Shown here piece after piece: positions 5,297 to 63,645 of a stretch of 64,000 bases of DNA; the first letter of the stretch is position 1; the number at the start of each line of letters is the position of its first letter. The translations under genes and the position numbers were made by a program. The notes below the pieces were generated by a model that searched no databases, was not told the DNA's origin, and saw only the letters and a list, made by a program, of their open reading frames with translations. The DNA is from Leucoraja ocellata (Eukaryota), in NCBI GenBank assembly GCA_036785375.1, contig JAWMAR010000108.1:2294001-2358000 (forward strand). Direction: 5' to 3'.

Positions 5297-5980
5297 TGAA
5301 TCTGAAACTGGAGGAATAGCACCTCATATTATGCCTGGTCTGAAGAAGGGTCTCGACCAGAAACATTGCCTATTTCCTTTGCTCCATGTTGCCTCACCCG
5401 CTGAGTTGCTCCAGCATTTTTGTCTACCTTCGTTTTCCAGCATCTGCAGTTCCTTCTTAAACAAATCATATTATGCCTGGGTAGCTCACAGCCCAATGGT
5501 ATGAACATTGGATTCTCCAATTTGAGGTAACCTCTAACTAACAACCCCCAACCACGCCCCCCCCCCCCCACCCCCTCTCCCCCCCCCCCCCACCCCCTCT
5601 CCCCCACACCTCTCTTTCTTCTCTCCCTTCCCTCCCCTTTGCCTCACTTGGACCTTGGACTCCCACATATTTCTCCATCCGCTACTTTCCTTCCTCTGAT
5701 TTCTCAATCCACAAATCTTCAAACATCTCACATCTTTATCCCTTTATTTCTGGCCTTTGCTCCATCCATCAGCCTACCAGAACACCCCCCCCCCCCTCCA
5801 CCACCCCCCCAACTCCACCCGATTACCTGCCGCACATTGTCCTGCCTCTTCCCTTTTCCAGCTTTCATCTTTCACTGCAATCTGTCTGAAGAAAAGTCCT
5901 AACCCGAAACATCAGCTATCCATGTTCTCCAGCGATGCTGCCTGACCCACTGAGGTACTACAGCACTTTGTGTCCTTTTG
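5297..5980 (+). mobile_element. Old Penelope-like element 3' end (GIY-YIG tail plus pLTR)
   Basis: KLEE*HLILCLGSSQPNGMNIGFSNLR* (read across the nested insert) matches the GIY-YIG C-terminus at about 62170-62259; degenerate hammerhead core at 5886-5910. Confidence 0.75.
5339..5465 (+). mobile_element. 127-bp Penelope-derived unit with minimal hammerhead core and 15-bp TSD
   Basis: TCATATTATGCCTGG at 5324-5338 and 5466-5480; CTGAAGA at 5340-5346 and GAAAC at 5360-5364. Confidence 0.8.
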
Positions 5981-6102
5981 AATAAAGAGACAGGATTGGT
6001 ATTCATTGGTGCAAAAATATTTGATGTTGTTCTGCTGACAATAAATTTGTTATTTGAACATCCTTTTAATGACAGTGTGCCCTCCTGCAATGTGTGCGCC
6101 TG

Positions 6103-6162
6103 CACACACACGTTCACACACGGTCACACACACGCACACACATTCACACACACTCACACACT
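6103..6162. repeat. Imperfect (CA)n microsatellite
   Basis: Seen directly. Confidence 0.9.
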
Positions 6163-7077
6163 CAGACAAAACAAACCTCGTTCTATCTTTGACCTATACG
6201 AATTTAGACAGTGAAATTAAAAAAAATTAGTAAGTTATTGTTATAAAAACTTAGCAGTGCAACATCACATGAATGTGTTAATCATTGATCAATACAGCTA
6301 ACAGTACAGCATTAGTACACAGACTGAAATGGATGGCCATAATGAGCCAGAGAAAGTGCTAAATTAGAAATCAGTAATCACAGCAATTTGATAAATCTTG
6401 TCATTAGTGGATTGAAATTATAATAATGATCACAAAGGCTGCCGGTTTATTCTAAAAAACCTAATTATTCTCCACTGTGTTATGAACTCAGAATATTTGA
6501 GCATTTTTAAAATGTTGTTATTAAAAAAACATAGGTTTGATAAAAAATCTCAGTGATAGGTAACAATGTAAAGTTTCCAGTCTTATGCAATATAAATTAG
6601 TTGTCACGTGTATCATATTAAAACCATTTTACTCTTCGTAGAGACATGTAATTAATCCTGCATATAAATCGCATTGTAAGTGTCTTTTTCAGATTCGTAT
6701 CCTTTTCCTGTATTTTCTAATAAATCTCTAGACCTACATTTTCAGTCAATTGAAATATCTGCATGGCTAAACTTTAATGGCAGTGATAAATTAGAAGAGA
6801 TAATGTCCTAAATCATAGCTCATAGATAACAGAATGAGATGACTTCAAATGATCTCACTTTTTCCTGTTTAATGGACACCCTTTCTAACTTATCAAATGG
6901 AAATCAAATTAAATCTCCAATATGAACGTTGATGAAATGATGAGCAATTTCAATATGCCAATCAATCAGCAAAGAACTGGTGATTGCTTTGAAAAGGAGT
7001 TTCTTCCATATCTGAGAGGTGCTGTTGAGAATATTTAATGTTCCTCGTGGCGTGCTGTTCTCATTAAGAGAGGCTTA

Positions 7078-7520
7078 AGGTGGCACAGTAACGCAGCTGG
7101 TAGTGCTGCTGCCTCACAATGCTGGAGACCCAGGTTTGATCCGGACCTCAAGTGGTGTGGAGTTTACACATTCTCCCTGTGACCGCAAGGGTTTTCTCCA
7201 GTAATTGGCCTACAAGTTTAGTTTAGTTTAATTTAGTTCAGTTTAGTTTAGATTCGATATACAGCATGGAAACAGGCCCTTCAGCTCACTGAGTCCGCAC
7301 CGACCAACAATCATCCCGTACACTAGTTCTATCCTACACACGGGGGACATTTTACAGAAGCCAATTAACCTACAAACCTGCACGTCTTCTGAATGTGGGA
7401 TGAAACCGGAGCACTCGAAGGAAAACCACAGGGAGAACGTGCAAACTCCACACAGACAGCATCCGTAGTCAGGATCGAACCCTGGTCTCTGGCGCCATAG
7501 GGCAGCAACTCTACCGCCCT
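7078..7520. mobile_element. Two HE1-like SINEs tail-to-tail (partial + copy 7078-7215, full - copy 7217-7520)
   Basis: Heads at both outer ends, with a (TTTAG)n tail in the middle. Confidence 0.75.
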
Positions 7521-8020
7521 TCAGCCCAACTTGCTCACACCGGTCAACATGTCCCATTTACACTAGTCCCACCATACCCCTCTTAACCTGTCCTATTTGT
7601 TCCATATCACCCTCGATATCTCTTGTTTTCTTCTCCCCAGACTGGCTGCAGAAGGGTCTCATCACAAAACGTTACGTATTCCTTTTCTCCAGAGATCCTG
7701 ACTCGCTGAGTTACTCCAGCTTTTTGTGTCTATCTTCAGTTTAAACAAGCACCTCAAGTTCCTTCCAACACACAATCCATGTACCTGTCTAAATATCTCT
7801 CAAACTTTGCGATGGTACTTGTCTCAACTACCTCCTCCAGCATCTCGTTCCATACACCCACCACCCTTTGTGTCAAAATGTTACCCCCTCAGGTTCCTAG
7901 AAATCTTTCCCCCCTCACCTCTGACCCCTGTCCTCTGGTCTTCAATTCCCCTACTTTAGGCAAGAGAATCTGTGCATTTACCCAATCTATTCGCCTCATG
8001 TTTTTGTACACCTCAATATG
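7520..8020 (-). mobile_element. Old CR1 3' fragment containing a Penelope pLTR piece (about 7605-7775, +)
   Basis: CR1 3' region in antisense, interrupted by gaagggtctc...gagttactccagc. Confidence 0.65.
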
Positions 8021-8979
8021 GTCTTCTGGGGTGAATATCTCATAGTCTCTTGGTATCCTCCAGCTCTGCCCTTTCGCACAAATGTAAATGCTCCCTATGT
8101 CTATATTTCAAATCCTTTTGTAGTTTTAAAGGCTTCCCATCACCCTTCTTTTCTTTTCCAAAGCAACCCAACATTTAACTTCCTTCCTCTTCGGAATAGC
8201 CATCTATTCTAGGACCCACCTTGTTTATTCTCCCTCTTGCATCTCCCATCCACTTTATAATTTGCTGTTGAGAGGTTTGCACGGTATTCTATACATGGTT
8301 TCATCAATTCATTCATTCATCATTGTTGAAAACATTAGCGACACAGTGGTGCTGGTTTCCCACGGGAACGGTGACGGACGCACCACACATCTCTGTCCTC
8401 CAGTTCCTGTGGATTTCCGCCGCTGGAATTATAGGATTTTGGTGTGTGTGCTTTATCATCATTCCTTACATTGCTATGTACGACAGTGATCGCAACATCT
8501 ACTGAGGTGTAGATGGCCGTTGGCTCGCTAGAAGCTAATCCGCTCTTTGACAGGTCTTGTTTTTGGTCCTGCTGGGGGTCCACAGCCCCCTCCTCACCTG
8601 GCAAACCAGGTGGGGGAGACAGTTTAGTCGCCGACTATCCGACCATGAAGCAAGCAGCATGGGATTGCATGGTACCCATGGCGGAAGGAACTCCGCCCCC
8701 CCACCCCCCCCCGACTTATCAAGATAAGTTTTAATATAATTCTTCCAGCCACTTTAGTCAAAGGCATAATTTTGTTATTTATTTATCAATATACCGAATG
8801 TAGGCATTGTTGGAAAGGCCAACATTTATTGCCCATGAGAAATTTGTGGTCAGTCACCTTCTTGGACTGATAGTCACCTCTGTGCATGGTTAAAACAAAT
8901 TGTAAACAACAGTGGTAGTATGGCCTTGTTCAGATTGTCAACAATATTTCTCCATCACAAAACAAGCTATTCTCCACCA

Positions 8980-9360
8980 TCAAGTCAAGTCAAGTCACAT
9001 TTAATCATATAACACATTTAAAAAACATTGGCCAAAATGCTTTACATTTGTTATAAGAATAGTATAAACAAACCAACTATATACGTATAGCCCTCGCTCA
9101 GTGGACGTCAGGAAAGGCTTGGGAGTATAGATAAGATTTTAGTCTTGACTTAAAGGAGTCGATGGAGGGGGCAGTTCTGATGGGAAGGGGGATGCTGTTC
9201 CACAGTCTAGGAGCTGCAACCGCAAAGACGCGGTCGCCCCTAAGCTTATGCCTAGACCACGGGATATTCAGCAGCCCCAAGTCGGCCGATCTGAGGGACC
9301 TGGAGGTGGAGTGGTGGGTGAGAAGACTTTTAATGTAGGTGGGGGCAAGCCCATTGAGGG
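8980..9360 (-). mobile_element. L2-clade LINE 3' fragment
   Basis: GDRVFAVAAPRLWNSIPLPIRTAPSIDSFKSRLKSYLYSQAF is a typical L2 ORF2 C-terminus; (TTGAC)n tail. Confidence 0.85.
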
Positions 9361-10033
9361 TGGTAATATCTGAAATGTTAGGACATTTGAATTTATCAGG
9401 ATAAATGTGACGTTAAGTCTACTGCCAGTAAATCTGTGCATGCTGTTAGTGGGCCAGGGCCTCATCAGGTGAATAGAGAAAATACAGAAGCTTGTGTTTA
9501 ATGAAGGAGTGTTGTAAATATGGTAATTGAATCATACAGCATGGAAACTGGACCCTCAGCCCAACATGCCCACACCGACTAAGATACATCATCTACAGTA
9601 GTTCCATCCGCCTGTGTTTGGCCCATATCCTTTTAAGAAGTCTGAGGAAGGGTCTCAACCTGAAGAGTCACCTATTCCTCGTCTCCAGAATTGCTGTCTG
9701 ACTCATTGCGTATCTTCTTTTTGTATCTTCCTTCTAAACCTTGTACTTGTCCAAATGTATTTTAAATGTTGTGATAGTACCTGCCTTAACTATCTCTTCT
9801 GGCAGCTCGTTCCACAAACCCACCACCCTTTTTGTAAATAATCTTCCCCTGAGATACCTTTTTAATCCTCCCCTCACACCTTAAACCAGTGTCACCTGGT
9901 TGTTGATTCCGCTACTCTGGGTAAAAGTGCGCATTTACCCTATCTATTCCCCTCGCGATCTCATACGCCTCTCTAAGAGCACTCCTCATCATCCTGCGCT
10001 CCAAGATATAAAGTCCTCGCCTGATCACCTAGA

Positions 10034-12936: not shown

Positions 12937-14162
12937 TAACTTTTTCACACAAAGGGTGATGGGTGTATGGGTGCCAGAGGAGGTAGTTGAGACAGGGACT
13001 ATTGCAACGTTTAAAAAAACAATTGGACAGGTACATGGATAGGTCAGGTTTGGAGGGATGTGGGCCAAACGCAAGCAGGTGGGCCGTTGGTCAGTGTGGA
13101 CAAGTTGGGCCAAAGGGCCTGTTTCCATGCTTTATCCCTTTATGACTTGAATGGAATTGAGGATGAAGCCCAATAGTCGCACATGAGTGGTCAAAGTGAA
13201 TAAAGAAATCTTCAACGGTTTTTCTCCTGATTCAGATGCTGCACAATTCCCCACATATCCATCCCTCACTTGCCAACAAGCTCAATCTATCAGCACTCAT
13301 TCATATGTTTCACATATAATCCTCCCCACTTTGAACTGCAGCCAGCATCAAACTCACAGCTAGCAACCTGCAGCGTGGCAACTGTTCATCTAACAGGCGC
13401 ATCAGCCAAACTCATTGCACAACAACTAGTGGCATAACTTGCAGGAAAACATCACACTCAAACCAAGGCAACAGGGACTAACTGGTGAACAAAAAGAATG
13501 GGTGACGTTGAGACATCCTGACCCAAAACGTCACCCATCCTTTTTCTCCAGAGATGCTGCCTGACCTGCTGAGTATCTTCAGTATAAACCAGCATCTGCA
13601 GTTCCTTTCCACACAGGAACCAACGGAAGATTGAAAAATGCATCTCCATAATCTAATCCCCATTGGAGAGATGGTACCAGGGTCATGACTCAGTCCATGG
13701 TTACTGACAGGGCTGTATCTACTGAAACTGGGAGTATTTGTGTATCATTTCCCTGTCCCACCTCTCCACGATATTACAGGGCCTTTAGAATGCAAATTTG
13801 CTGATGGTCCAAGCAGATACTTCCACTTATCTGGGATTCCCTAAAACCCAATGACGTCTGGGAATCCCTACAAACCCCAGGTAGTCAACTTGCCAGGAAG
13901 ATGGGAGGGAGCCAGATGAAGATGCACGCAAATCACCAGATGACTGCACTGTCACGTCAGCTTTAGCCAGTGAGTGTAACCTCGAGGATTGTGTAGAGAG
14001 TATCATGGTTTGTACATCGAGTATGTGCACTGCAGTAGTCGTCCAAAGAGTGTGACTGCAGTCTGTAGTCTTCTCTGCTGCAGAAGACTTGAAAGCAGAG
14101 TTTGATAGGCGATATCACAGGAGAAGGGAACATTGGAAACTCTGCCATAGAGCTTGCGTTCA

Positions 14163-15935: not shown

Positions 15936-16185
15936 GTCTAAGACACAAGGTAAGGTCTGAGGGAGCTGAAACCCAGCTTGCAGCTCATACTTCTGGCTCT
16001 GGGCACCAACGTGCCAAGACGTTTCCAAGGCACTACAGCATTTCCACAAACCGACCCCGAACAGATAGTCTGTGTGTAAATATGGTATCCTGCTGACAGT
16101 CCCCTTCCTCCTTCCCTTCCTGCCAACTTGATATTCTCTGCTTGGCCTGGGCTCGGGGGGGCAGCATCTACGGAGAGAAGTAATT

Positions 16186-16220
16186 GGCGATGTTTCGGGT
16201 CGAGACCCTTCTTCAGACCC
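16186..16220 (-). ncRNA. Minimal hammerhead ribozyme motif (Penelope-type)
   Basis: Minus strand reads GGU CUGAAGA A GGGUCUCGACCC GAAA CAUC GCC; stem III palindrome broken. Confidence 0.55.
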
Positions 16221-16412
16221 AGCCAGATCCTATTATGGCCATTTTCATAAAGAGCAACGATATTTGCAGCAAAGCCTTGGAACAACCTGGATCTGAACAT
16301 TTCCATTTTCATTGTAGAAATGTGGCAACAAATATGGGCAGAGTACTGAATTCTCCAGTGTTCACAATGCAGTTTCCAATGAAAGGTCATCTGAGATAAT
16401 GTTGACTTGCTA

Positions 16413-16646
16413 TGCCCCTGTCCCACTTAGGAAACCCGAACGGAAACCTCTAGAGACTTTGTGCCCCACCCAAGGTTTCCGTGCGGTTCCCGGAGGTTCC
16501 CTACCTGCTTCCACTACCTGCAACCTCCGGCAACCACCTGCAACCTCCGGCAACTACCTGCAACCTCCGGGAACCGCACGGAACCCTTGGGTGGGGCGCA
16601 AAGTCTCCAGAGGTTTCTGTTCAGGTTTCCTAAATGGGACAGGGCA
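16413..16646. mobile_element. MITE family A, opposite orientation
   Basis: Same TIRs; flanks CTA/TTA. Confidence 0.85.
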
Positions 16647-16883
16647 TTACTCTCTTTACCTAGAAGTTGAACTCTCTCTGCCTTCAAAATATTCGAAGAC
16701 CCTGCCTTCACTGCCTTTGAGACCGAAAGGATTTTAAACTCATTATATTCTGAGAAAAAAACCCAAATCTCTCTCTTAATTACAACCACTTTTTTTTATA
16801 TAGTGACCCCTCCAGCTGTTGATTCTCGCACAAATGGAAACATCCTCTCCTGATCCATATTATGAAGACTCCTCACATCCTGA

Positions 16884-17671: not shown

Positions 17672-17915
17672 TTGAGTTGGAAGGAACAGCAGATGCTGGT
17701 TTACACTGAATTTAGACACCAAATAGTAACTTTAGTAACTCAGCAGGTCGGGCAGCATCTTGGGAGAAAAGGAATAGGTGACATTTCGGGTCAAAACCCT
17801 TCCTCAGACTGAAAGTCAGAGGGGAGAGAAACTAGAGGTATGAAAAGGTTTAGAACAAATCAGAGCCGGCACCAATGACCAAGGAAATGTGGAGCCCACA
17901 ATGGTCCATTGTTGT
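17672..17915 (-). mobile_element. Penelope pLTR fragment with degenerate hammerhead core
   Basis: gacatttcgggtcaaaacccttcctcagact near 17781-17810, plus flanking homology to 62300-62520. Confidence 0.7.
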
Positions 17916-21812: not shown

Positions 21813-22025
21813 TAAAATTTGACACAAAGTGTTTGAGTAACTCAGCAGGTCTGGCATAATCGCTGGAGAACATGGACATGTGATATTTCTGGTTGGGACT
21901 CCAACCTGAAGAAGGGTCCTGATCCGAAACGTCACCTATCCATGTTCTCAGAGATGCTGCCTGACCCACTGAGTTACTCTAGCAGTCTGTATCTTTTTTT
22001 GTGAATCTGCAGTTCCTTGTTTCAA
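21813..22025. mobile_element. Palindromic Penelope-derived unit with hammerhead core
   Basis: Minus arm then plus arm; CTGAAGA at 21906-21912 and GAAACGTC at 21926-21933. Confidence 0.7.
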
Positions 22026-22683
22026 ATTCTCTTCCATGTTTTTAATTCTCACTATAGTCGCAGCTCTCCCCAATTCTATCAACTCCTCCTGCCCATTAAT
22101 CCAGTGAGGTGTCTGCTCTTCCAAATGTGGCCTGTTTGCTACTCCCTATTGGTACACTATTGACAATCCCTTCACCTTCCATGCCCTTAGCTCTAGAATT
22201 ACCTCCATAAATGTCTCTGCCTCCTGCTTTCTCCTTTCCGATTCCCCTTAAAATCCACCATTAGGAGCGTCCAGTTGTCGCCTTGTTTGAAAACATGCCT
22301 ACGAACGGGATATTTTCATCGTGGCAGGCTGCAACTAGTGGAATGCCTCAGGGATGGGTGTTGGATCTCTGCTGTTAATAATCCACATCAATCATTTAGA
22401 TCTTCTTCTTATCGAGTCCACACAAAAGATTAGAAGTTGTTCCGCCAGAGCTGAACACACCTCTCGGCATCTGCACAATGGTGCCTGTCTTGCGCTTCTT
22501 GTGCTTCTTGTGCGTGGTAGAGGAAAGATTGGTGGAAGCAGGGCCGCGACGCAAACGCTCTTTCCTTGACCCCAATAATTCACATGAAGTGTTGGGTTTA
22601 GGTTTAAGTTTATTATTGTCGCGTGTATTGAGGTACAGTGCAAAAGGTTTGTTTTGCATGCTGCCGAATCAGATCAGATAATA

Positions 22684-22842
22684 GTAGACACAGAGTGCTG
22701 GAGTAGCTCAGCAGGCCAGGCAGCATCTCAGGTGAACATGGATAAACAACTGTTAGGGCCGGGACTCTTCTTCAGACTGCTGAGATGCTGCCCAACCTGC
22801 TGAGCTACTCCACCACACTGAATCTGGAGTTCCTTGTTTCTA
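22684..22842. mobile_element. Palindromic Penelope-derived unit, 14-bp TSD
   Basis: CAGATCAGATAATA at 22670-22683 and 22843-22856. Confidence 0.8.
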
Positions 22843-22864
22843 CAGATCAGATAATACTATACAT

Positions 22865-28073: not shown

Positions 28074-28680
28074 CATTGTATTGTATTGTATTGTATATCT
28101 TTATTGTCATTTCCTGAGTACTCACATACCCAGAGGAAACAAAAAAACGTTGCTCAACCAGTGTCCATTCAGTGTGCATTAAAAATAAATAGAAATAAAA
28201 ATACATATATCATGAACAAATTTAACACTCTACTAAACATTCAACAGGCGTTCCGATCGGCAGCGGCACGACAGTGGCTCTGCTGCAGTGTGTCCAGGTT
28301 GGTGGTTGGTGTGCGATACTTTGGCAGGGGGCAAAGTCCGTTTAGCAGTCTTATAGCCTGCGGGAAGAAGCTGAGGAGCATCCTGCTGGTTTTGCAGCTA
28401 ATGCTCCTGTACCTCTTCCCAGATGGCAGGATGGAGAATATGTGATGCGATGGGTGGTAGGGGTCTTTGATGATGGAGATGGCTCTGCTGATACATCTCT
28501 TCCTGTATATGTCCAGCAGGAAAGGGAGTGGAGCACCAATAATCCTGCTGGCGGTCTTCACAATCCTGTCTAGTTGGTGCCGTTCGTACGCCTTGCAGCT
28601 CCCGAACCAGGAAGTGGTGCCGTAGGTCAATGTGCTCTCGATTGTCCCCCTATAAAAAGTCCGTAGGTGTGGTACAAGCA
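28074..28680 (-). mobile_element. Rex1/Babar LINE 3' fragment
   Basis: FYRGTIESTLTYGTTSWFG...LPSGKRYRSI...SFFPQAIRLLN; (CAATA)n tail. Confidence 0.88.
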
Positions 28681-29070
28681 TATAGGTGTTCCTGCAAATG
28701 GTGAGCTAACCCCAGGCCTCTGCAATCTGGGGACTAAAGTAGGACAGCTTCATCTTCAGGAAGAAGGTAGAGCACCTTGTCTAACCCGGCAGAATAAGAG
28801 AGCTTCACACTGCACCAAACTGTTCCAGCAATCCACACTCTGCTAGCTACAGAATGATGGACGGGCTCCCCTCTCGTCATTGAATTAGGGTTGGAGAATG
28901 GAATCACCACAAATTTGAGACCTGCAGCTCCTTCTCATCCCTTGAGCATGTGGATTGGACAAGCCTGCACTGAAGTGGTTGCCTGGAAGCTAAAACTCTA
29001 AATTAGACCATCAGGGCTGAAACATCCCCATGCACAGTCTAAAGTCCCAGGACATGCAGGCCACCCAAGA

Positions 29071-29895: not shown

Positions 29896-30606
29896 TTGGT
29901 TTACTTTCTGAAACTTTTCTCACCGACCACAACCCATTGTTAATCCAGGTGATATAGTACATTAACATAGGAGCCAGTGACTGCAACAGCTGTTTTAAAA
30001 CACCCGTTTTTACAGCATGCCTATCCATCAGGATTTGAGCTGCAGCATTGAGGCCATTTCTAAGCACCACAGTGCAGGAGGAATGATGCCCATAGACTGA
30101 GCGCAGAGAAGATCCACTGAAATAGCAACGTCTGAAAGATTTCTATTGAAACAGGGGGGAAGCTAGGAATATTCTCTGTCAAGCTGAGGCTTTTTATAAT
30201 ACAAGAAATCTAGAGGAAGAATGAGGCAGAGTACAACCTTAAATGAAGTGATTGTAAGATTGGTAGAAGTACAATCAATCATAAGTACCGGCTTTAATTT
30301 GACTTTAATTGACTTTATCTTGCACTAAACGTTATTCCCTTTATCCTGTATCTGTAAACTGTGAACAGTTTGATTGTAATCAAGTATAGAATTTCCACTG
30401 AATGGTTAGCACGCAACATAAAGTTTTTCACTGCACCTCGAAACAATAAACGAAAGTAAGCTAAACTAAAGGATAAAAAATATTCAAAATGTTACTATTT
30501 TTTTCCCTAAAACACATTTTTAGAGCGGGAAACCGTGGGCCAACAGAATCTACGTTAGTGTTCCAAGAGATGGAGAACATACATAAGCAAAACACACAAT
30601 GCTGGA

Positions 30607-30796
30607 CAGGGCTGGATTTAGATGAATAGAGGCCCTAGGCTATTCCACTTGTTAGGCCCCTCACAATCCCCAATGCAAGGCCCCTCCCAATCAGCCTATG
30701 AAGCCTATAGATAAATCCGGCCCTGCCGAGGCCACCCCCCTAGATCTCGAGGCCCTCAGCTTAAGCTTGTGAAGCTTATACGTAAATCCGGCCCTG
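30607..30796. mobile_element. hAT-type MITE inside a Penelope-derived unit
   Basis: TIR CAGGGCTGGATTTA / TAAATCCGGCCCTG; 8-bp TSD ATGCTGGA (30599-606) / ATACTGGA (30797-804). Confidence 0.8.
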
Positions 30797-30938
30797 ATAC
30801 TGGAGGAACTCAGCGTGTCAGGCAGCATCTGGGGAGGGAATGGAGGGGTGATATTTCAGGTTGGGACTCTTCATCAGGAAATACTTGCACGTTCTGCTGT
30901 ACTTATAGTTAAACATATCTCTTGTATCTCTGCACCAG

Positions 30939-33436: not shown

Positions 33437-33925
33437 GTGGTGGCAGAGTGGCGCAGCAGGAAAGTTGCTGCCTTACAGCGCCAGAGACTGGGTTCGATCC
33501 TGACTACGGGTACTGTCTGTACAGTGTTTGATCATTCTCCCTGTGACCGCACGTGCTCCTGTTTCTTCCCATATTCCAAAGATGTGCAAATTTGTAGGTT
33601 GACAAAAAATGCTGGAGTAACTCAGCGGGACAGGCATGACAAGCATCTCTGGAGAGAAGGAATGGGTGACGTTTAGGGTCCTGACCCATTCCTTCTCTCC
33701 AGAGATGCTGCCTGTCCCGCTGAGTTACTCCAGCACTTTGTCTCTATCTTCAGAGTAAACCAGCATCTGCAGTACCTTCCCACACATTAAGTCTGTTGGT
33801 CAATTAACTTCTGTAAATTGCCCCCGGTGTGTAGGATAGGACTAGTGTAAGGGATCATGGCTGGTCGGCATGGACTCGGTGGGCCAAAGGACCTGTTTCT
33901 ACATTATATCTCTGAACTGAACTAA
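33437..33925 (+). mobile_element. HE1-like SINE containing a palindromic Penelope-derived unit (33601-33786)
   Basis: Near-perfect inverted arms tgctggagtaactcagcgggacaggca / tgcctgtcccgctgagttactccagca. Confidence 0.8.
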
Positions 33926-37647: not shown

Positions 37648-37980
37648 TGCCCCTGTCCCACTAATGCCCCTGTCCCACTTAGGAAACATGAACGGAAACC
37701 TCCGGAGACTTTGTGCCCCACCCAAGGTTTCCGTGCGTTTCCTGGAGGTTGCAGGTGGTTGCCGGAGGTTGCAGGTAGTTGAAGCAGGTGGGGAGACTGA
37801 CAAAAACCTCCGGGAACTTCCGGGAAATGCATGGGTGGGGCGCAAAGTCTCCAGAGGTTTCTGTTCAGGTTTCCTAAGTGGGACAGGGGCATGAGGAACC
37901 TGAACGGAAACCTCTGGAGACTTTGCGCCCCACCCAAGGTTTCCGTGCGGTTCCCGGAGGTTTTCGTCGGTCTCCCTAAT
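37648..37980. mobile_element. MITE family A nested in the TIR of a related, one-ended copy
   Basis: Inner copy 37665-37891 splits the outer TIR at cac|TTA|gga. Confidence 0.85.
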
Positions 37981-40640: not shown

Positions 40641-42910
40641 TGCTGCAGGTCAACAGGTCACGAGGAAACACCTTTTTTTTTAAATGCACCTAAAATATTT
40701 TAGAGTGCAAAATAAATGCTGCACAATAAAGAGAATAAAGTATATAAACAAATGTTAATGAAAGACTAGCTATAAATGGGTGTGGAAATTAGATTTTTTT
40801 TCGAGTAAATGACAATCCATAATAAGGTTGAAGCAAGGAATTGCAGATGCTGGATTAGTAAAAAGTCACAAAGTGCTGGAATAACTAAGTGGGTCAGGCA
40901 GCATCTCTGGAGAACAGTCGGGATCTTTTATCAGACATACAAAAACCATTACTTCTATGGTAGTAATATTTTTGAAGCAATAGTCTGAGTTATAAACCAT
41001 TTAAAGCTCACTGATACTTCATGCAATAAAGCTTGTCTTTTTGGGGAATTTTTTAACAATTTCAGTGATTTGTAGAAGCCAAAATGTTCCTCTATTCACT
41101 AAAGTTTGAAGTTTACCTGCAGCCTGTGGTGAAGTAGGAAAACATTGTCTACAGTTTTTACATTTTGATTTGAAATCCATAAATTGCTGACACCATTATT
41201 TCTTATTGTAAGTACCAAACCAAGAACTAGGACACCCAAAAAAAACACAAAGTCCTGGAGTAACTCAGTGGCTCAGGCTGCAGCTCTGGAAGACATGGAT
41301 AAGTGACATTTCTGGTTGGGATCTTTTTTCAGACGCCACAATGTTTTAGAATGCTGTGCTTCTATCTCACAGACCCACTTACAACAAAAAAAAAGAATGC
41401 AAGGATCCTTGCCTTGAAGACTGACTGCACGGAGTTGAAAGGAATTCCTTAAGCAATATTAAAGTACGTTCTTCCAAGATTTAAGCACATATTACTATGT
41501 GGTGCGTTGGAGATTTATTATCCAGTGCATTCTATTCCAATGTATAAAATTGTCTCTACAATTGACCGCACTGTGCCTGCATTGAAAGTGTTTGAAACTG
41601 GCTGAGTGGAAACTAAAAAAATGTGGCATGTTTGCAAATCCAGACTGAGTTATCCTGTTCCATCCTGTTCTTTTTCTGTGACAACATCATTAATCTCACT
41701 GTCTAACAAATCAATAATTCATCCAAGTGAAAACAGAAAGTAATTCGGGGAAGTAAATATTTTTTGATGTTTAACCAAGTGTGTGCACCATTTCAGACCT
41801 GCTTTAAAAAGTGTACATTGTGGTAATTGAAGGACCATTGTTGACAGGTTACAGGTGAGCTCTACATACAAAAGAGAACGTTGTCACTCATACCTGAAAT
41901 TTTACACTTGAAGACCTTTTTTAATATACAGTACCACGAATAGAAATGTTTGCCATCTTATATATTGACTCTGTTGCACTAGTCAATCTCTCTCAATCAT
42001 ATTCCTCCATGGCTCATGTTAACAACATTCTTCTGGCTCAAACATCTCAGAGTAATCCTGCACTAATTTCCCAGCCGACTTCCTTTTGCACCTTTCTGAA
42101 ATTCTATACATTTTCAAATGAATGATATCCTGAAAAACATTTTCAATTCCAATCCTACTTTCTATATTCTGGATCTCCGACCACCCAATGCCTTAGAATT
42201 AGTCATTTTATATATTGTCTTCAGGACCCATAATGGTTTTATATGGTTATATGGTTATAAAATGTATTTCTTTCAGAATGGCTGACGCCTGCTTAAATTG
42301 TACAGTTTAGCTGTGAAGTCAAAGTACCAAAATATAAATGCATTAATGGTTCTAGGGTTAATAATTGAAGAGCCAGTTTCAACATACCAGCTCACTGCTT
42401 AAGATCTCTTGGGATTTAAAAGCGAAAGCTTGATACCACTAACCACTGCTTATATTTTGTCTCGTGCCCTACTTTTTCAGCATTGGTATTGTCTTGAATT
42501 ATTAACCCTGGCTCTTCACTGCACTTCCTCCAAAAAAAAACAAAGATGAATTTGATTTACTTCCATTGGTAGCACACCCCAAGTTGGTAACAGTTAATGC
42601 AGAACCTGAAAAAAAAAGCTGGAAGCCTAGTTGGCCTACTTTGTAAAGATGTCAAAGGCATGCAGAGGGTAAAGAAAAAACATGTGCTCAGGCAATTACC
42701 AACATTCTCACCACATCCTCATCAGCTTTATTGGTCGACAGAAGAAAGTCTCTTCACATATGCATTTATTTGTCCCTCTTCAAGTACTTTTCCGTTTATT
42801 TTTTGTTACCCCTTGGTTGAAGTCCTTTTCAGACAATGGATTCCATACTGAGGTGCCTGGGAATTTGTAAACTAGGAAATATACTCACATACTCCAGAGC
42901 TCAGTACATT

Positions 42911-43210: not shown

Positions 43211-43478
43211 TATTGTTTCAAGGGGCATCCAAACGGATTCAACAGGCCTCCACAGAAGATAATTGGTACAACTAAGTGCAGTAGATCGCATGACCCTGTC
43301 AAGTTAAACAACTTTAAAACTCAATCATCTTTTAACAACTGATGCTAAATGCACTGCATAGCTCACAACCTGCTGGAGTAACTCAACAGGTCAGCCAGAC
43401 AGCATCTCCAGAGGACATGGATAGACGGCATTTTGAGTTGGGACCCTTCTTCAAACAGTGCACAGATCAATACATTGA

Positions 43479-44400
43479 ACACAATAAGCTGGAGTAACAC
43501 AGCGGGTCAGGCAGCATCTCTGGAGAAAAGGAATAGGTGACGTTTCGGGTCGAGACCCTTCTTCAGACTGAGAGTTCGGGGAAAGGGAAACAAGAGATAT
43601 ACACGGTGATATAGTGAGATATAGAACAAATGAATGAAAGATATGCTAAAGTAACGATAACCATATAACCATATAACCATATAACAATTACAGCACGGAA
43701 ACAGGCCATCTCGACCCTTCTAGTCTGTGCCGAACACATAATCTCCCCTAGTCCCATATACCTGCGCTCAGACCATAACCCTCCATTTCCTTCCCATCCA
43801 TATAACTATCCAATTTATTTTTAAATGATAAAAACGAACCTGCCTCCACCACCTTCACTGGAAGCTCATTCCACACAGCTACCACTCTCTGAGTAAAGAA
43901 GTTCCCCCTCATGTTACCCCTAAACTTCAGTCCCTTAATTCTCATGTCATGTCCCCTTGTTTGAATCTTCCCTACTCTCAGTGGGAAAAGCTTTTCCACG
44001 TCAACTCTGTCTATCCCTCTCATCATTTTAAAAACCTCTATCAAGTCCCCCCTTAACCTTCTGCGCTCCAAAGAATAAAGCCCTAACTTGTTCAACCTTT
44101 CTCTGTAACTTAGTTGCTGAAACCCAGGCAACATTCTAGTAAATCTCCTCTGCACTCTCTCTATTTTGTTGACATCCTTCCTATAATTAGGCGACCAAAA
44201 TTGTACACCATACTCCAGAATTGGCCTCACCAATGCCTTGTACAATTTTAACATTACATCCCAACTTCTATACTTAATGCTCTGATTTATAAAGGCCAGC
44301 ACACCAAAAGCTTTCTTTACCATGATGATAAAGGATGTTGGCCATTGTTAGCTGTGTTCCAGGTGAAAACAAGTACAGACAATGAGACTCAACCAGACGA
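43479..44400 (-). mobile_element. Penelope pLTR with intact hammerhead core, split by CR1 subfamily 2 (43660-44323)
   Basis: Core at 43539-43566; ACATTGA at both flanks; CR1 ORF2 segment of 191 aa with ATATGGTT tail. Confidence 0.75.
43536..43570 (-). ncRNA. Minimal type-I hammerhead ribozyme motif
   Basis: Minus strand reads AGU CUGAAGA A GGGU CUCG ACCC GAAA CG UC ACC; palindromic ACGU stem III and GUC cleavage triplet. Confidence 0.7.
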
Positions 44401-46300: not shown

Positions 46301-46593
46301 TTAAATAATTTTATTTATTAAAATTAACTAGTAACCAAAAGCATGCTGGTTGCATTGTATTGACACTTACAAACTTGTGTTCACAAACTACATTTAAATC
46401 TCTGAAGACGATTCTACTGATGGATGTTTCTATCAGTGCCAGCAATATTCTGGTACATAGCTGATCGTTTTTCATGAATGACCCAGGATGGTGCATACCA
46501 AAGATCTTTGATCTTTGGTGCATACTAAATAACAGCAAGACATTTCACAGAGAGGTGGAGCATTTCAAGTATGTCAACTATGTCCAAACACAA

Positions 46594-46682
46594 AAGATAG
46601 ACACACAGTGCTGGAGTGACTCAGTGGGTCAGGCAGCCTATCTTTGGTAAAAACCAACATCTGCAGTTCTTTGTTTCTACAT
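46594..46682. mobile_element. Short two-armed Penelope-derived unit, 15-bp TSD
   Basis: TATGTCCAAA(C/T)ACAA at 46579-93 and 46683-97. Confidence 0.7.
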
Positions 46683-50934: not shown

Positions 50935-50989
50935 TCGTTATCAGCAAGTTCATGTTGTAACAGGTGCAGGCTCGTCCTTGGAGCAGGCT

Positions 50990-51794
50990 GAGTCTCACGG
51001 GAACGGCAGCATCTAGCAAAGTGGTTTAATTTATTGCAGAAATTACAGTTTTTACCATAAGCAACACAGAACTGCCGACCCGTAGCATGAAAATAGTTGC
51101 AATTTTGACATCGAACAGACCCTCTCCAGGCTGCCAGGCAGGAGAGGGCTGGGAATGGGTGTTACGAGAGGAGGTGTCTGTAATATTGACACTATACTGT
51201 GAACGGTGACCGGAGGGCACAGACTCAGTGTGCGAAGAGGTTATCTCAGCAATCCGACAGGCATGCTCTGCTTGATTAAGGGTTAGGTCAGTATGACGAT
51301 GAAGTTCACTCCTTAACTTGCTATCAAGCATACCTCCAACACGCTTGTCACGGATGAGTTTATCGCACAGATCACGAAACTGACAGCGTGCAGCCATGTG
51401 TTTCAAGCCGCTAATAAAAACGTTTGATCGGTTCATCAATCTGTTGCATATAAGCATAAAACTTGGTACGTTCAATAATGTAGTTCGAGGGCTGGTCGCA
51501 CAACTGCCCTCAAACTTTGCAAGCAAAACGGCAGGATCATCAATCGTCTCTGCAGGCACTAGGACCTGTCCATTAGCATCCAAAACGGCAGGCTCAAATG
51601 TAACATTGTCGGCACGATTCATTACCTCAGGTCCCACTAGGTTGAGCAATACAAAACCACGCACATCGGGGGGGGGGGTCGTTGCGATGAACGACGCAAA
51701 CATAGTGAGTGTAGTCACGCTCGAAAAGATGCCAGCGTTCAGCAATGTCAGAGTCAAAGATCAGAGGACTAGGACGGCGAGATGAATTTGCCAT
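50990..51794 (-). pseudogene. gag: Gypsy gag remnant
   Basis: LIRDKRVGGM motif; after a frameshift, a double zinc knuckle CQNCNYFH...C and CNFCNKLNHFARCC. Confidence 0.85.
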
Positions 51795-52086: not shown

Positions 52087-52741
52087 GTTTCCCATTCCCA
52101 CAAATCTGCAGGACACAAATGGTACTTAACAAAAATAGCTTTTCAGCACGAGAATATATTGTCATCAATAATAGCTGCAAATGGGTCACTGTTTTCCAAC
52201 TCAATTTCAAAATGACTATGTTTTGTGGTGTTAGGCATCATCTTAAACTCACCAAACAGATTTTGTATTTATTCTTTTTTTAGGGTCTGGGCATTACTGT
52301 CAGGAACAAGATATATTGTTCATCCCTAACTGCCTTTGAAACAGTGGTGGTGTGCTGCCTTCTTGAACTGTTGCAATCTCCAGAGAAGGGATTTCCAGAG
52401 AAGGAAGAAGGGTTCCGACCTGAACCGTCACCTATTCCTTTTCTCCAAAAATGCTGCCTGACCCACTGAGTTACTCCAGCATTTTGTTATCTTTCTTCGG
52501 TATAAACCAGCATCTGCAGTTGCTTCCTGCACCTTTCAAGAGTTGTTGGGTAGAGAATTCCAGGATTTCGATCCAAGTGAGGGTGGTGTGGGACCTGGAG
52601 GGCACCCGAGCAACGGTAGTTGACCTTCTATGTGCAGAGATCAAGATAACCTCTGTAAATGTGCGGTCCATATTGTGGATGATAGCCACTGCAATCACTG
52701 AGTGGCAGTGGTGGAAGGAATAAATGTTTGTAGATGTAGAT

Positions 52742-55778: not shown

Positions 55779-56007
55779 ATAGAAACAAGGAATGCAGATG
55801 CTGGATTACAAAAACATGACACAAATTGCTGTAGTAACTCAGCGGGTCAGGCAGCATCCCAGGCAAATACCGATAGGTGGCGTTTTGGATCAGGACACTT
55901 CTTCAGACTTCAGACAGGTCAGGTCCCAACCCTAAATGTGATCTATCCATGTTCTTCAGGAATACTGCCTGACCCGCTGAGTTACTCCAGCATTTTGAGT
56001 CTTTTTT
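55779..56007. mobile_element. Palindromic Penelope-derived unit, 14-bp TSD
   Basis: TGGCAACTCTAGAG (55765-78) / TGGCAACTCATGAG (56008-21). Confidence 0.75.
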
Positions 56008-56663
56008 TGGCAACTCATGAGCTTTCCTCTGTCTCTATGTCCTATTTCCTAAACAGAGAAGGGAGGTGTGCTTCAATATGGTGGATTGTCTCAAACAGTA
56101 TTTACAAAAAGCTTTTGGAATAACAACCATCTCTTGCAGCAGAATCTTCAGTATTGCTTAAAACATATTGAATTCTGGAACGGCAAATTTCCAATGCAGT
56201 TATTTTCTTTGAACATTCATCAGAAGTAAATAAATATATTGCTAATAAGTGGCACTAAAACTCCCCGGTAATAATAACAATAAAAAATAGTTCAGTAATC
56301 ATTCTGGGACGTTGCAGATTGTCACTCTTGACTGCACAGTAATGTAAAAACTCAGTTGAAAGGAAGCTCCTGGCATTTGAACAAAACATGACAGAGTTGC
56401 CTTTCAACCCCAGCTTAAGGCATGTAATATAAATATTTAATTTTAACAGTCTTTTATCTGGGCATTGTTAAATTATTCACAGTGGTTACTCCGTCCCATT
56501 GCGTCTAATCACTATCGATGTTTGCAGAAAGCCTGTCAAGGAACAAGTCTTAGTTTGCCGGGAATATTAACAAAAGCAGGAAGGCTGATGCTTTACTCAG
56601 CATGCAGTCCCCTCTCCACTGAGCACCTTTAGCAGAGTGAGCATGATGTTATACAGTTTAGAC

Positions 56664-60550: not shown

Positions 60551-60573
60551 GGGGGGGGGGGGGGGGGGGGGGA
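60551..60573. repeat. Poly-G tract
   Basis: Seen directly. Confidence 0.9.
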
Positions 60574-61117: not shown

Positions 61118-61510
61118 AGGGCCTGTCCCACGAGCATGCGACCTGCATGCGGCAAGCACGACCAAACCGGAAGCGGGGGGCCGCGTGGAGGTCGAGTGAG
61201 TGACGTGAAGTTCGAGCGAAGTCCCGCGGGAATTTCGCTCATGACGTATGGCGTCAAGACGCTGCGTACAGCATCAAGATGCTGCGCACTCCCGTCGAGA
61301 CCGTGCGTACGGCGTTGAGGCGGCTGCGGGCCGGCAGGCGGTTGCCGTGCGGAATTTTTGAACACGGTCAGTTTTTCGGAGCCCCGCGCGATGTCAGGAC
61401 CAGCTCCGCACAACTCCATACGGCCCTGGCGATCGGAGTGGGACCGGCCCCGCGAGGCCGTATGGGGTCGCGCTTGCCACATGGAGTCGCATGCTCGTGG
61501 GACAGGCCTT
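61118..61510. mobile_element. MITE family B, inverted relative to the 19070 copy
   Basis: TIRs AGGGCCTGTCCCACGAGCATGCGAC; flanks TAT/TAG. Confidence 0.88.
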
Positions 61511-61673
61511 TAGTCTGGGGAATGAGTCTGGGAACAGGAAATTGGAAAGTAGTTAAACAAATATTTATAACAATTACAACGAACATCTCATTAATACTGA
61601 ATCATGCTGGGGAAGTAATTAACTAACATTACTGTCATTAGAAAATTGATTTTAGGCTAAATAATGATTTGGG

Positions 61674-61873
61674 NNNNNNNNNNNNNNNNNNNNNNNNNNN
61701 NNNNNNNNNNNNNNNNNNNNNNNNNNNNNNNNNNNNNNNNNNNNNNNNNNNNNNNNNNNNNNNNNNNNNNNNNNNNNNNNNNNNNNNNNNNNNNNNNNNN
61801 NNNNNNNNNNNNNNNNNNNNNNNNNNNNNNNNNNNNNNNNNNNNNNNNNNNNNNNNNNNNNNNNNNNNNNNNN
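61674..61873. other. Assembly gap (200 N)
   Basis: Seen directly. Confidence 1.
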
Positions 61874-62525
61874 ACACCTGTTGCTATTCCTCCACCCTCG
61901 ACTCTGTCCAGGGACCCCGACAGTCCTTTCAGGTTAGGCAGAGGTTCACTTGCACCTCCTCCAACCTCATCTACTGTATCCGTTGTTCAAGATGTGGACT
62001 CTTATACATCGACGAGACCAAACGCAGACTGGGCGATCGTTTCACGGACCACCTTAGCTCAGCCCGCCTGAACCAACCTGACCTCCCGGTTGCTGGACAC
62101 TTTAATTCTCCTTCCCATTCCTACACAGACCTTTCTGTCCTCGGTCTCCTCCATTTTCAAAGTGAGAATAAACGCAAATTGGAGAAAGAGCATCTCATAT
62201 TTCGCTTGGGCAGCTTGCAGCCCAGTGGTATGAATATTGATTTCTCTCACCTCAGGTAGCCCCAGCATTTCCTCTCTCTCTATCCCTCCCCCACCCAAGT
62301 CGCACTAGCTTCTCATTTTCACCCTACAAACAGCTAACAATGGCCTGTTCCCTTTAGCGTTACTTTTTTGCATATCTTGCATTCATTATTCTTTATCTCT
62401 CCACATCACTGTCTATATCTCTCATTTCCCTTATCCCTAACCAGTCTGAAGAAGGATCTTGACCCGAAAGGTCACTTTCCTTCTCTCCAGGGAACGCTGC
62501 CTGACCCGCTGAGTTACTCCATCTT
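61874..62525 (+). mobile_element. Penelope-like retroelement 3' part: GIY-YIG endonuclease plus pLTR
   Basis: FTCTSSNLIYCIRCSRCGLLYIDETKRRLGDRFTDH...GSLQPSGMN* (stop at 62259); hammerhead core at 62446-62473. Confidence 0.92.
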
Positions 62526-62837
62526 ATTGTTTCATTCTTAGCAGTCATCAATGCCCTGTGATCATCTCCCCTCAAGATCCTCTGTTGAAGATACCTAAAC
62601 CTTCTTGGTTTACACCATTGATATGAATGCAGTTTGAAAAATTGTGCATTCTGATCAGTACATAAGGTGTCACAGGTGACACAAAAATTGATGGAAAAGC
62701 AAGTTGTGATGACATAGGAAGACTCCCAGATATTCTGTAGATTGTAAGGGGAAGGGGACCCAGTATCAATCTATTTACCTACTGAAGACAAGTCCAAAAA
62801 TTACCCACTTATCAATGGTTACAATCACCTATCCATG

Positions 62838-62948
62838 TCTGAGTTGGATGATACTGAGTTGGATGATCAGCCATGATCATATTGAATGGCGGTGCAGGCT
62901 CGAAGGGCCGAATGACCTACCCCTGCACCTATTTTCTATGTTTCTATG
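62838..62948 (+). mobile_element. Very short young CR1 3' end
   Basis: 3'UTR plus tail only; 14-bp duplication at its 5' junction. Confidence 0.85.
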
Positions 62949-63302
62949 TCAATATATAACCCTCACTAAGTGCACATACCTTGTGCAGTAATCTTTATGT
63001 GAAAACCTTAGCATATACTTTCTTAAAATTCAAATACATCCCGTCCACTGGTTCCCCATTATCCACTCCTTTTAATACATTCTCAAAGAATTCTGGCAAA
63101 TTTATCAAATATGACACTTTTCATAAAACCATGATGTTACTGCCTTAATAATTTGTTCCAATGTTGCTGTGAATTTTGGGTCTTTGTAAGTTTCTTCCTC
63201 TGTTGCAGTTGATCTATCTTGCTATAAGGAAGAGAACTCAGCCAGAGTTTCTGACTATCCTTTAACAATTTGACAGAGACCATGCATAAGGACTAAAGCT
63301 AA

Positions 63303-63645
63303 TGAGAAACTGCAGATGCTGGTTTACACCAAAGATAGACACAAAATGCTGAACTGAGCGATGTTTAAGAAGGAACTGCAGATGCTGGAAAATCGAAGGT
63401 AGACAAAAATGCTGGAGGAACTCAGCGCGTGCGGTAGCATCTCTGGATAAAATGAATCGGTGAGGTTTCGGGTCGAGACACTTCTTCAGACACGTTTCGG
63501 GTTGAGATCTTTCTTTAGATTCACGTTTTGGGTCAAGACCCTACTCCAGTCTGAAGAAGGGTCTCGACCTGAAACGTCACTCATTCCTTTTATCCAGAGA
63601 TGCTGCTTGTCCTGCTGAGTTACTCCACCATTCTGTGTCTATTTT
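63303..63645. mobile_element. Compound palindromic Penelope-derived unit with tandem hammerhead cores
   Basis: Three minus-strand core copies at 63465-63542 (the third truncated) and one plus-strand core at 63551-63578. Confidence 0.75.

What the first reader, a model, noticed from the sequence alone, without database searches (positions are those of the whole stretch)
5339..63645. Window-wide family of hammerhead-bearing, often palindromic Penelope mini-elements
About 20 pieces (near 5339, 5886, 7645, 9640, 13500, 16190, 17780, 21813, 22684, 30595, 33601, 40830, 41240, 43370, 43479, 46594, 52400, 55779, 62446, 63303) match the pLTR of the GIY-YIG element at 61874-62525. The best copies read CUGAAGA-A-GGGU(CUCG)ACCC-GAAA-CG-UC. 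This has an extra A after A9 (a variant known to be tolerated in a viroid hammerhead) and a palindromic ACGU stem III that could only form by dimerisation. In an intron, this would load the pre-mRNA with potential self-cleaving or dsRNA-forming modules. Best candidate here for an under-described system.
Basis: partly seen in the sequence, partly recalled or inferred. Interest (0 to 1): 0.8.

Follow-up and report, generated by a model that had tools for sequence, protein, structure and literature searches.

The report
Penelope retroelement stubs with hammerhead motifs
The roughly 20 scraps are real, truncated ends of a Penelope-like jumping gene that carry an already described minimal hammerhead ribozyme motif; they are no denser here than elsewhere in this genome, most are decayed, and the palindromic ones are likely one-off by-products of insertion rather than a new self-spreading or regulatory system.

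Summary
Observation confirmed: 29 arms at 22 loci match the terminal repeat (pLTR) behind the GIY-YIG fragment at 61876-62259. The window is average for its genome (0.453 vs 0.454 arms/kb in 116 evenly picked 10-kb stretches; 15,546 exact copies of one 31-mer). The motif, its extra A, the palindromic helix III and the need for dimers were all described for Penelope-like elements (PLEs) in 2014. Only 2 of 29 window arms keep core, stem II and palindrome; helix I has 2 bp; the catalytic G12 decays like other CpGs; RNA reads of a same-label organism show no dip at the cut site. Palindromes are single insertions (13-16 bp target duplications) with heterogeneous junctions (76 different start pairs among 86), so they are not a propagating mini-element. 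No host gene was found. What remains of interest: 27 of 28 duplication-flanked palindromes pair one tailed with one untailed arm, and often neither arm nests in the other, which hints at two priming events; and outside the window a 66-bp half-hammerhead minisatellite has 24,761 exact junctions. The scan reached the same verdict before on other genomes. New member of a known kind.

The parts
61876..62259 (+). C-terminal GIY-YIG endonuclease fragment of a PLE (CxxC between the GIY and YIG boxes; YIG reads YID); upstream 61674-61873 is N
   Evidence: relatives at 79-92% identity
62260..62542 (+). pLTR of that copy: pyrimidine-rich part, degenerate hammerhead at 62446-62473, untailed 3' end
43476..43660 (-). 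best hammerhead copy: C3 at 43566, C17 at 43539, predicted cut between 43539 and 43538; core, stem II, ACGU and 2-bp helix I intact; pLTR continues upstream
43341..43461 (-). older degenerate arm in direct orientation next to the best copy
63363..63647 (.). head-to-head palindrome: tailed arm 63492-63363 (-), inner fragment 63559-63523 (-), untailed arm 63543-63647 (+) with intact core and G.U closing stem II
21814..22025 (.). head-to-head palindrome, untailed (-) and tailed (+) arm; + arm keeps core, stem II and ACGU but no helix I
22680..22839 (.). head-to-head palindrome with exact 14-bp target-site duplication; untailed (-) and tailed (+) arm
33593..33785 (.). head-to-head palindrome joined inside stem II; no complete hammerhead
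46588..46677 (.). short head-to-head insertion with 15-bp duplication (1 mismatch); no hammerhead left
55785..56010 (.). head-to-head palindrome, tailed (-) and untailed (+) arm, both hammerheads broken
13486..13613 (.). short palindrome joined inside the hammerhead; tailed + arm
5335..5462 (+). solo tailed arm, core intact, stem II and palindrome broken
5877..5979 (+). solo untailed arm, degenerate
7573..7770 (+). tailed arm with upstream pLTR, core broken
9635..9740 (+). solo arm, core broken
16159..16220 (-). 3'-truncated arm, core and stem II intact, helix III palindrome broken
17676..17841 (-). tailed arm, core and stem II intact, palindrome broken
30595..30878 (-). arm 30777-30878 with its 3' end near 30595, interrupted by other sequence
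40829..40917 (-). tailed arm truncated 3' of the hammerhead
41232..41336 (-). untailed arm, core broken
52397..52531 (+). tailed arm, core broken
63303..63354 (-). tail-only fragment
63900..63941 (-). internal fragment

Best explanation
The pieces are 5'-truncated 3' ends of a very abundant endonuclease-bearing Penelope-like retrotransposon family, likely of the Neptune type, each a likely dead-on-arrival insertion that carries the element's minimal hammerhead motif as a passenger and decays at what appears to be a neutral rate. Shown: the pieces share the pLTR that follows the GIY-YIG gene; they end at two 3' positions about 33 nt apart (with and without the known 'tail'); head-to-head pairs are single insertions with 13-16 bp target duplications, same-subfamily arms, variable junctions and nearly always one tailed plus one untailed arm. 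Inferred mechanism: the element's protein nicks both target strands 13-16 nt apart; reverse transcription starts inside the RNA at the two sites just 3' of the hammerhead; synthesis mostly stops early, often within or just 5' of the hammerhead; in palindromes both ends are 3' ends of the element and the two products are joined at their 5'-truncated ends, often at short self-complementary spots (just before C3, stem II, the ACGU). I favour two priming events (one per nick, one per start site) over simple fold-back, at about 55:45. The hammerhead matters, if at all, in the autonomous source RNA (dimer- or protein-assisted cleavage, by analogy to published PLEs), not in these copies.
For: Density equals genome average: 29 arms/64 kb vs 527/1,160 kb, reversed control 0; 15,546 exact 31-mers, control 0; 163,942 first-look candidates for the endonuclease piece. 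Same pLTR ends copies up to about 2.2 kb with RT and EN motifs. Two 3' end peaks. Head-to-head 92 vs tail-to-tail 17 within 150 nt; genome-wide 17,384 vs 2,039 exact 14-mer pairs. Target duplications of 7 nt or more in 21 of 59 vs shuffled mean 2.3, max 7; 22 of 28 called duplications are 13-16 bp, null 0, 0, 1 of 92. 76 distinct start pairs among 86 palindromes. One tailed + one untailed arm: 50 of 61, expected 30.4, p 2e-7; 27 of 28 with duplication. Arms agree at subfamily columns 448 of 577 vs 49% shuffled. Untailed arm reaches further 5' in 34, tailed in 15, tie 27 of 76, p 0.009. Decay: G12 0.71, 15.2/16.2 0.74/0.73, like CpG columns 73/74 at 0.69/0.75; only 23 of 527 sampled arms keep the full descriptor. 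Literature: PMC4209133, PMC3846280, PMC8557442, PMC11167929.
Against: Non-CpG core columns are slightly better kept than control columns (1687 of 1820 vs 4910 of 5460 in 182 full arms, p 0.0004); by base only the A columns differ, which may be alignment bias but could be weak selection. No intact full-length source was found (longest open frames 347 and 444 aa among 150 scored matches each), so clade and source are inferred from motifs; no tree was built. For two-priming: among duplication-flanked cases the 5' asymmetry is 11 vs 4, p 0.12; in longer inverted insertions the tailed arm is the longer one in 5 of 8 scorable cases, which fits fold-back equally well; later deletions in hairpin centres could blur nesting; Frangieh et al. 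saw no strand difference in start-site use in vitro. A few junctions recur (6 of 86 at the spot before C3; one palindromic junction recurs at 4 of 10 minisatellite loci shown).
Confidence: 0.9

Rival explanations
1. The palindromes are a non-autonomous, MITE-like mini-element that is transcribed and copied as a palindrome by the PLE protein.
For: Large numbers (17,384 exact pairs); target duplications flank the whole palindrome; some junction types recur; one composite junction recurs at 4 of 10 minisatellite loci printed.
Against: 76 distinct start pairs among 86; only 20 of 3,655 junction pairs are alike, and these sit at self-complementary spots and span different subfamilies; the identical pairs among the first 50 places listed lie at matching offsets on one contig and look like regional duplicates; the same inverted structure occurs on copies of up to 2 kb.
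Confidence: 0.06
2. Palindromes arise by fold-back self-priming of one cDNA (the Arkhipova model) with the tail trimmed from, or never copied onto, one end; same family, different mechanism from the two-priming model.
For: Same-subfamily arms and slightly more shared rare alleles than chance (22 of 401 vs 2.3% shuffled); junctions at self-complementary spots; tailed arm longer in 5 of 8 long inverted copies; proposed in PMC3846280 and PMC8557442.
Against: In 34 of 76 the untailed arm reaches more than 5 nt further 5' than the tailed arm, so neither arm nests in the other; in 4 of 50 the tailed arm starts only about where the untailed arm ends.
Confidence: 0.4
3. The copies form a functional intronic load of self-cleaving or dsRNA modules that shapes a host pre-mRNA.
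For: Family RNA is abundant on both strands in four RNA runs of a same-label organism; palindromes are predicted to form long hairpins; 2 of 29 window arms keep the motif.
Against: No Pfam-detectable host exon in 150 of 179 window ORFs or 101 of 112 neighbouring ORFs (a weak test); density is the genome average; read depth is flat across the cut site and no begin/end pile-up is listed in 4 of 4 runs; predicted stem II probability 0.08 or less and helix I 0.0 in the three best copies; published metazoan PLE hammerheads are inactive as monomers and weak as dimers.
Confidence: 0.04
4. The copies are monomer offspring of a non-LTR retrozyme (tandem hammerhead repeat spreading through circular RNA).
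For: pLTR-derived retrozymes are reported in vertebrates including one chondrichthyan (bioRxiv 10.64898/2026.07.22.740005); a pLTR-derived tandem repeat exists in this genome.
Against: No tandem of complete hammerheads in the window; the 66-bp tandem unit lacks CUGAAGA and stem II; about half of the arms that reach the 5' end of the profile (128 of 248) match upstream pLTR sequence of coding copies (the library also held some inverted arms, so this is an upper-side figure).
Confidence: 0.05

Closest known systems
Minimal type I hammerheads (min-HHR) in pLTRs of metazoan PLEs (Cervera and De la Pena 2014, PMC4209133; read: abstract, results, discussion, start of methods; figures and supplements not seen)
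   Same: Core, unpaired nucleotide between 9 and 10.1, G10.1-C11.1, palindromic 15.2-16.2 without loop, location in the pLTR, thousands of solo copies, pairs on opposite strands
   Different: Stem II is 4 bp (7-8 bp in Schistosoma); helix I is 2 bp (4-5 bp typical; 2 bp reported for D. virilis); copy number is orders of magnitude higher (about 1.5 million arms by extrapolation vs 4,000-9,000 motifs in coelacanth and Xenopus, counted by a different method)
Insertion units of EN+ PLEs with inverted 5'-truncated pLTR, one-sided 30-40 bp tail and target duplication (Arkhipova et al. 2013, PMC3846280, passages and Discussion; Craig et al. 2021, PMC8557442, passages)
   Same: Head-to-head inversion, palindromic junctions, tail at one end, duplication around the whole unit, partial tandems
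   Different: Here reduced to 90-290 bp stubs in very large numbers; duplications 13-16 bp (8-10 bp in the rotifer); one-sided tail quantified as near-obligate
Neptune clade PLEs (definition from PMC8557442 passages)
   Same: C-terminal GIY-YIG with CCHH, CX2-5CxxC linker between RT and EN, DKG motif
   Different: No tree and no full-length copy here; Nematis also has a linker finger, so the clade call is by motif only
Poseidon element of the green anole, PAc (Frangieh et al. 2024, PMC11167929; read: main text and start of methods)
   Same: Two internal reverse-transcription start sites define the tail; both target strands are cut and extended; hammerhead not needed for insertion; no RNA reads ending at the cut site
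   Different: Different clade; in vitro no strand preference for the start sites, whereas genomic palindromes here pair one site with the other
Non-LTR retrozymes (PMC7229834 passages; bioRxiv 10.64898/2026.07.22.740005 parts 1-3 of 5)
   Same: pLTR-related, type I hammerhead, dispersed monomers
   Different: Defined by tandem units each with a whole hammerhead; not the case here

Membership tests
EN+ Penelope-like element | C-terminal GIY-YIG endonuclease with CCHH finger | tested here: met
   LIYCIRCSRCGLLYIGET with two downstream His in relatives; window copy has YID; Pfam E 0.042 below cut-off
EN+ Penelope-like element | RT upstream of EN, followed by pLTR | tested here: met
   RT motifs (DKG, MGTRMGP, YIDD) collinear with EN and pLTR in broken copies such as L163 and L014; RVT_1 E 0.009
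EN+ Penelope-like element | 5' truncation, inverted 5' copy, partial tandems, optional 30-40 nt tail | tested here: met
EN+ Penelope-like element | single intact RT-EN ORF in a source copy | tested here: inconclusive
   longest open frames 347 and 444 aa among 150 scored matches each of 163,942 and 14,089 candidates
Neptune clade | CX2-5CxxC linker between RT and EN | tested here: met
   CNRRRCNTC and variants in L016, L018, L020, L024
Neptune clade | RT phylogeny | not tested
   no reference PLE proteins were fetched
PLE minimal hammerhead | conserved core CUGANGA / GAAA / UH | tested here: met
   intact in 10 of 17 window arms and 98 of 257 sampled arms that cover the motif; commonest letter at every core column
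PLE minimal hammerhead | extra nucleotide between 9 and 10.1; G10.1-C11.1; palindromic 15.2-16.2 | tested here: met
   extra A in 17 of 17 and 243 of 257; G-C and C-G are the commonest pairs
PLE minimal hammerhead | helix I of 4-5 bp | tested here: not met
   pairs 1 and 2 formed in 196 of 246 and 189 of 225, pair 3 in 31 of 216, pair 4 in 37 of 209; a 2-bp helix I is reported for D. virilis
PLE minimal hammerhead | compensatory changes in stems | tested here: inconclusive
   only one-sided U-A to U.G changes at one stem II and one helix I pair; no frequent two-sided change
PLE minimal hammerhead | self-cleavage as dimer or with protein | not testable with these tools
   RNA depth flat across the site but fragmented libraries and mostly dead copies make this weak
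Non-LTR retrozyme | tandem units each with a complete hammerhead | tested here: not met
   none in the window; 66-bp tandem unit holds only the 3' half
Non-LTR retrozyme | circular RNA intermediate | not tested
   no suitable library examined
Non-autonomous palindromic mini-element (MITE-like) | shared junction and length across copies | tested here: not met
   76 distinct start pairs among 86; TSD-bounded lengths 89-246 nt
Domesticated intronic hammerhead (RECK type, PMC6155905 passage) | lies in a host intron and is conserved across species | tested here: inconclusive
   no host exon found; no related genome available; family-level decay looks neutral

The most novel reading that the evidence does not exclude
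The palindromic stubs are a fossil record of a twin-priming integration mechanism for Penelope-like elements: both staggered nicks (13-16 nt apart) prime reverse transcription on the element RNA, one at the tailed and one at the untailed start site, and the two cDNAs are joined head to head near the hammerhead. This would explain in one step the inverted pLTR, the one-sided tail and the target duplication, replace the antisense self-priming model, and be testable at once in the published in vitro PAc system. A side branch: a 66-bp pLTR-derived minisatellite carrying the 3' half of the hammerhead spreads into old copies and could supply helix III in cis.
Probability: 0.4. Interest if true: 0.5.

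Novelty: new member of a known kind. Interest (0 to 1): 0.2.

Why it matters
As a system it adds little: the ribozyme variant and the insertion architecture are in print. Its value is scale: about 1.5 million arms (extrapolated from 1.16 Mb) and tens of thousands of palindromes make this genome a large natural data set for how PLEs integrate, an open question, and a source of long RNA hairpins wherever the copies are transcribed. If the tailed/untailed pairing reflects twin priming, it links the in vitro findings on the anole element to the genomic structures.

Tried and rejected
Rfam scan of the window: no hammerhead family among 14 matches at E up to 5, none above its gathering score; the minimal motif escapes these models. 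Host gene: Pfam on 150 of 179 non-repeat window ORFs gave one sub-threshold hit; on 101 of 112 neighbouring ORFs one hit on a LINE-like fragment and one sub-threshold hit; intron status stays open. Sequencing runs: no RNA holder listed for a unique stretch; the raw-read runs laid come from a 'same species label' organism whose reads cover the repeats but almost none of the unique flank, so they say nothing on transcription of this locus. Preferred truncation at the cut site: no peak at columns 38-39 among palindrome arm starts or all arms (profile edges are fuzzy). Full-length source element: not found. Lunse et al. 2017 on dimer cleavage could not be read; only its title and a review's summary were seen. 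Cis-completion of helix III by the 66-bp array as a selected function: only 1 of 27 arrays is preceded by an intact hammerhead under a strict pattern, so not favoured. Rows dropped: 6 of 92 sampled pairs with gaps over 30 nt, and pairs with a 3'-truncated arm (25 of 86), before the tail count; duplicate and overlapping loci, whose set mixes evenly picked and pattern-selected loci.
Full report
OBSERVATION. The window holds 29 profile hits (arms) at 22 loci, with none in a reversed control. They match the region behind a GIY-YIG fragment at 61876-62259 (+). Of 29 arms, 17 cover the whole hammerhead; 10 keep the core, 5 also a 4-bp stem II, 2 also G10.1-C11.1 and the ACGU palindrome (21900 + and 43572 -), and 1 also the two helix I pairs. 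Six head-to-head pairs were called by script and a seventh by eye.

IT IS GENOME-WIDE. The window lies in a 3.44-Gb assembly. One exact 31-mer occurs 15,546 times, its reversed control never. In 116 10-kb stretches picked at round coordinates on contigs C2-C320 the profile finds 527 arms, 0.454 per kb, against 0.453 in the window; that extrapolates to about 1.5 million arms (inference; small contigs not sampled). The repeat content reminds me of cartilaginous fish; this is recalled, not tested.

THE PARENT. The endonuclease piece has 163,942 first-look candidates. Longer broken copies of up to about 2.2 kb show RT motifs, a CX4CxxC linker, the CxxC between GIY and YIG, then the same pLTR. By the definitions in PMC8557442 (passages) this is an EN+ PLE of Neptune type; no tree was built and no intact ORF was found (open frames at most 347 and 444 aa among 150 scored matches each).

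THE RIBOZYME MOTIF IS KNOWN. PMC4209133 (abstract to start of methods read, figures and supplements not seen) reports minimal hammerheads in PLE pLTRs, including Neptune elements of fishes, names the nucleotide between 9 and 10.1, G10.1-C11.1 and the palindromic 15.2-16.2 as recurring features, finds most motifs as solo copies and some as pairs on opposite strands, and shows no monomer and low dimer activity. A review (PMC6765202, passages) repeats this and cites Lunse et al. on dimer cleavage, which I could not read. PMC11167929 (main text) shows for an anole PLE that the hammerhead cuts only with protein and is not needed for insertion. So the extra A is the rule for this class, not a viroid-like oddity.

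ARE THE COPIES UNDER SELECTION? Among 527 sampled arms, 257 cover the motif, 98 keep the core and 23 the full descriptor. Non-CpG core columns hold their commonest letter at 0.89-0.96, like invariant columns downstream. In 182 full arms core columns score 1687 of 1820 against 4910 of 5460 for controls (p 0.0004); split by base over all arms, only A differs (p 0.0001), C, G and T do not. G12, essential for catalysis (established knowledge), sits in a CpG and is kept in 0.71, like non-core CpG columns 73 and 74 (0.69, 0.75). Subfamily differences avoid the core and include two U-A to U.G changes in stems, but no frequent two-sided change: this fits constraint in source elements and drift in copies. 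Helix I has only two pairs (third pair 31 of 216). Predicted stem II probability in the three best copies is 0.08 or less, and a competing hairpin pairs the stem II 5' strand with the bases after the cut site. In RNA reads of a same-label organism the family is abundant on both strands; depth is flat across the cut site (43539/43538) and no begin or end pile-up is listed in 4 of 4 runs from 2 studies. This is weak evidence, because the libraries are fragmented and most copies are dead.

THE PALINDROMES. Head-to-head neighbours within 150 nt number 92 against 17 tail-to-tail; genome-wide exact pairs 17,384 against 2,039 (the spacing window is not strictly equivalent and regional duplicates are counted). 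They are single insertions: flanks share 7 nt or more in 21 of 59 cases against a shuffled mean of 2.3, and 22 of 28 called duplications are 13-16 bp; two window copies have them (22680, 46588). Arms agree at subfamily columns in 448 of 577 comparisons against 49% shuffled. Junctions differ: 76 start pairs among 86, and recurrences sit at self-complementary spots. They are therefore made anew at each insertion and are not a mini-element lineage. The architecture is in print (PMC3846280, passages and Discussion; PMC8557442).

MECHANISM. Arms end at two positions about 33 nt apart, the known optional tail, which PMC11167929 ties to two internal start sites of reverse transcription. Of 61 sampled palindromes with both ends scorable, 50 pair a tailed with an untailed arm (expected 30.4, p 2e-7); of 28 with a called duplication, 27 do. 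Simple fold-back of a tailed cDNA predicts that the untailed arm nests in the tailed one; instead the untailed arm reaches further 5' in 34 cases, the tailed in 15, with 27 ties (p 0.009), and in 4 of 50 the tailed arm starts about where the untailed one ends. I infer two priming events, one from each nick. Against this: the duplication-flanked subset is not significant (11 vs 4, p 0.12), long inverted copies have the tailed arm longer in 5 of 8 scorable cases, later deletions may distort centres, and the anole enzyme showed no strand preference in vitro. A search for 'Penelope' with 'twin priming' listed 3 papers, none on PLE integration by title and abstract start (not read); two searches listed nothing further. 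Subscription papers and Repbase/Dfam are outside these searches, so absence from print is not shown.

HOST CONTEXT. No Pfam-detectable host exon in 150 of 179 window ORFs or 101 of 112 ORFs in 40 kb of flanks; the long unique ORFs look like other retroelements. The intron premise is neither shown nor excluded.

SIDE FINDING. A recurring joint in the RNA reads led to a 66-bp tandem unit made of the pLTR from GAAAC onward: 24,761 exact junctions genome-wide, short near-identical arrays attached to old copies of different subfamilies, 27 arrays in 115 kb of one region with 25 in the same orientation and 30 of 56 units identical, but only 1 junction in the 116 sampled stretches and none in the window. 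It lacks the 5' half of the core, so it is not a retrozyme; spread by ectopic recombination is my inference. One paper search listed nothing on it.

EARLIER NOTES OF THE SCAN. One search returned several follow-ups from other genomes with the same verdict; my reading was written down before that call and they did not change it. Searches returned nothing.

VERDICT. Real, correctly parsed, but an ordinary slice of a huge PLE family with a known ribozyme variant and a known insertion architecture. Interest 0.2; new member of a known kind. The tailed/untailed pairing is the one result a PLE specialist might want to follow.

Noticed in passing
G000:C1:18.05-20.61 Mb (L191-L232); not in the window: 66-bp minisatellite derived from the pLTR (3' half of the hammerhead onward), 24,761 exact junctions genome-wide, short young arrays attached to old copies, regionally clustered and co-oriented (25 of 27); sometimes with a recurring 160-bp insert that holds a palindromic junction; also seen in RNA reads.
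   Followed up: partly
window 43528-43575 (-): Predicted alternative hairpin pairs the stem II 5' strand and end of the core with the bases after the cut site and would keep the ribozyme off.
   Followed up: no
window 50814-51760 (-): Broken gag-like ORF with a zinc-knuckle-like stretch, probably an LTR retrotransposon; no Pfam hit (label by recall).
   Followed up: no
window 28244-28705 (-); L029:4632-5096: 3' ends of LINE-like ORFs; the L029 piece hits Pfam ALKBH8_N, likely a transposon-derived match.
   Followed up: no
window 2267-2681, 3112-3717 and at least 10 further places: A second, younger dispersed repeat family at 92-99% identity, up to about 600 bp; not classified.
   Followed up: no
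window 1217-1468, 16411-16648, 37660-37978, 61120-61508: Palindromic elements with inverted ends unrelated to the PLE, MITE-like.
   Followed up: no
window 22522-22584 (-): Weak Rfam match to the CPEB3 ribozyme (25.2 bits, gathering 35, E 0.022); probably chance.
   Followed up: no
G000:C108:4752293-4755664 (L012): 98% identical inverted duplicate of the window's 62 kb region on the same contig; many such near-identical pairs appear in the search lists, suggesting regional or haplotypic duplication in the assembly.
   Followed up: no
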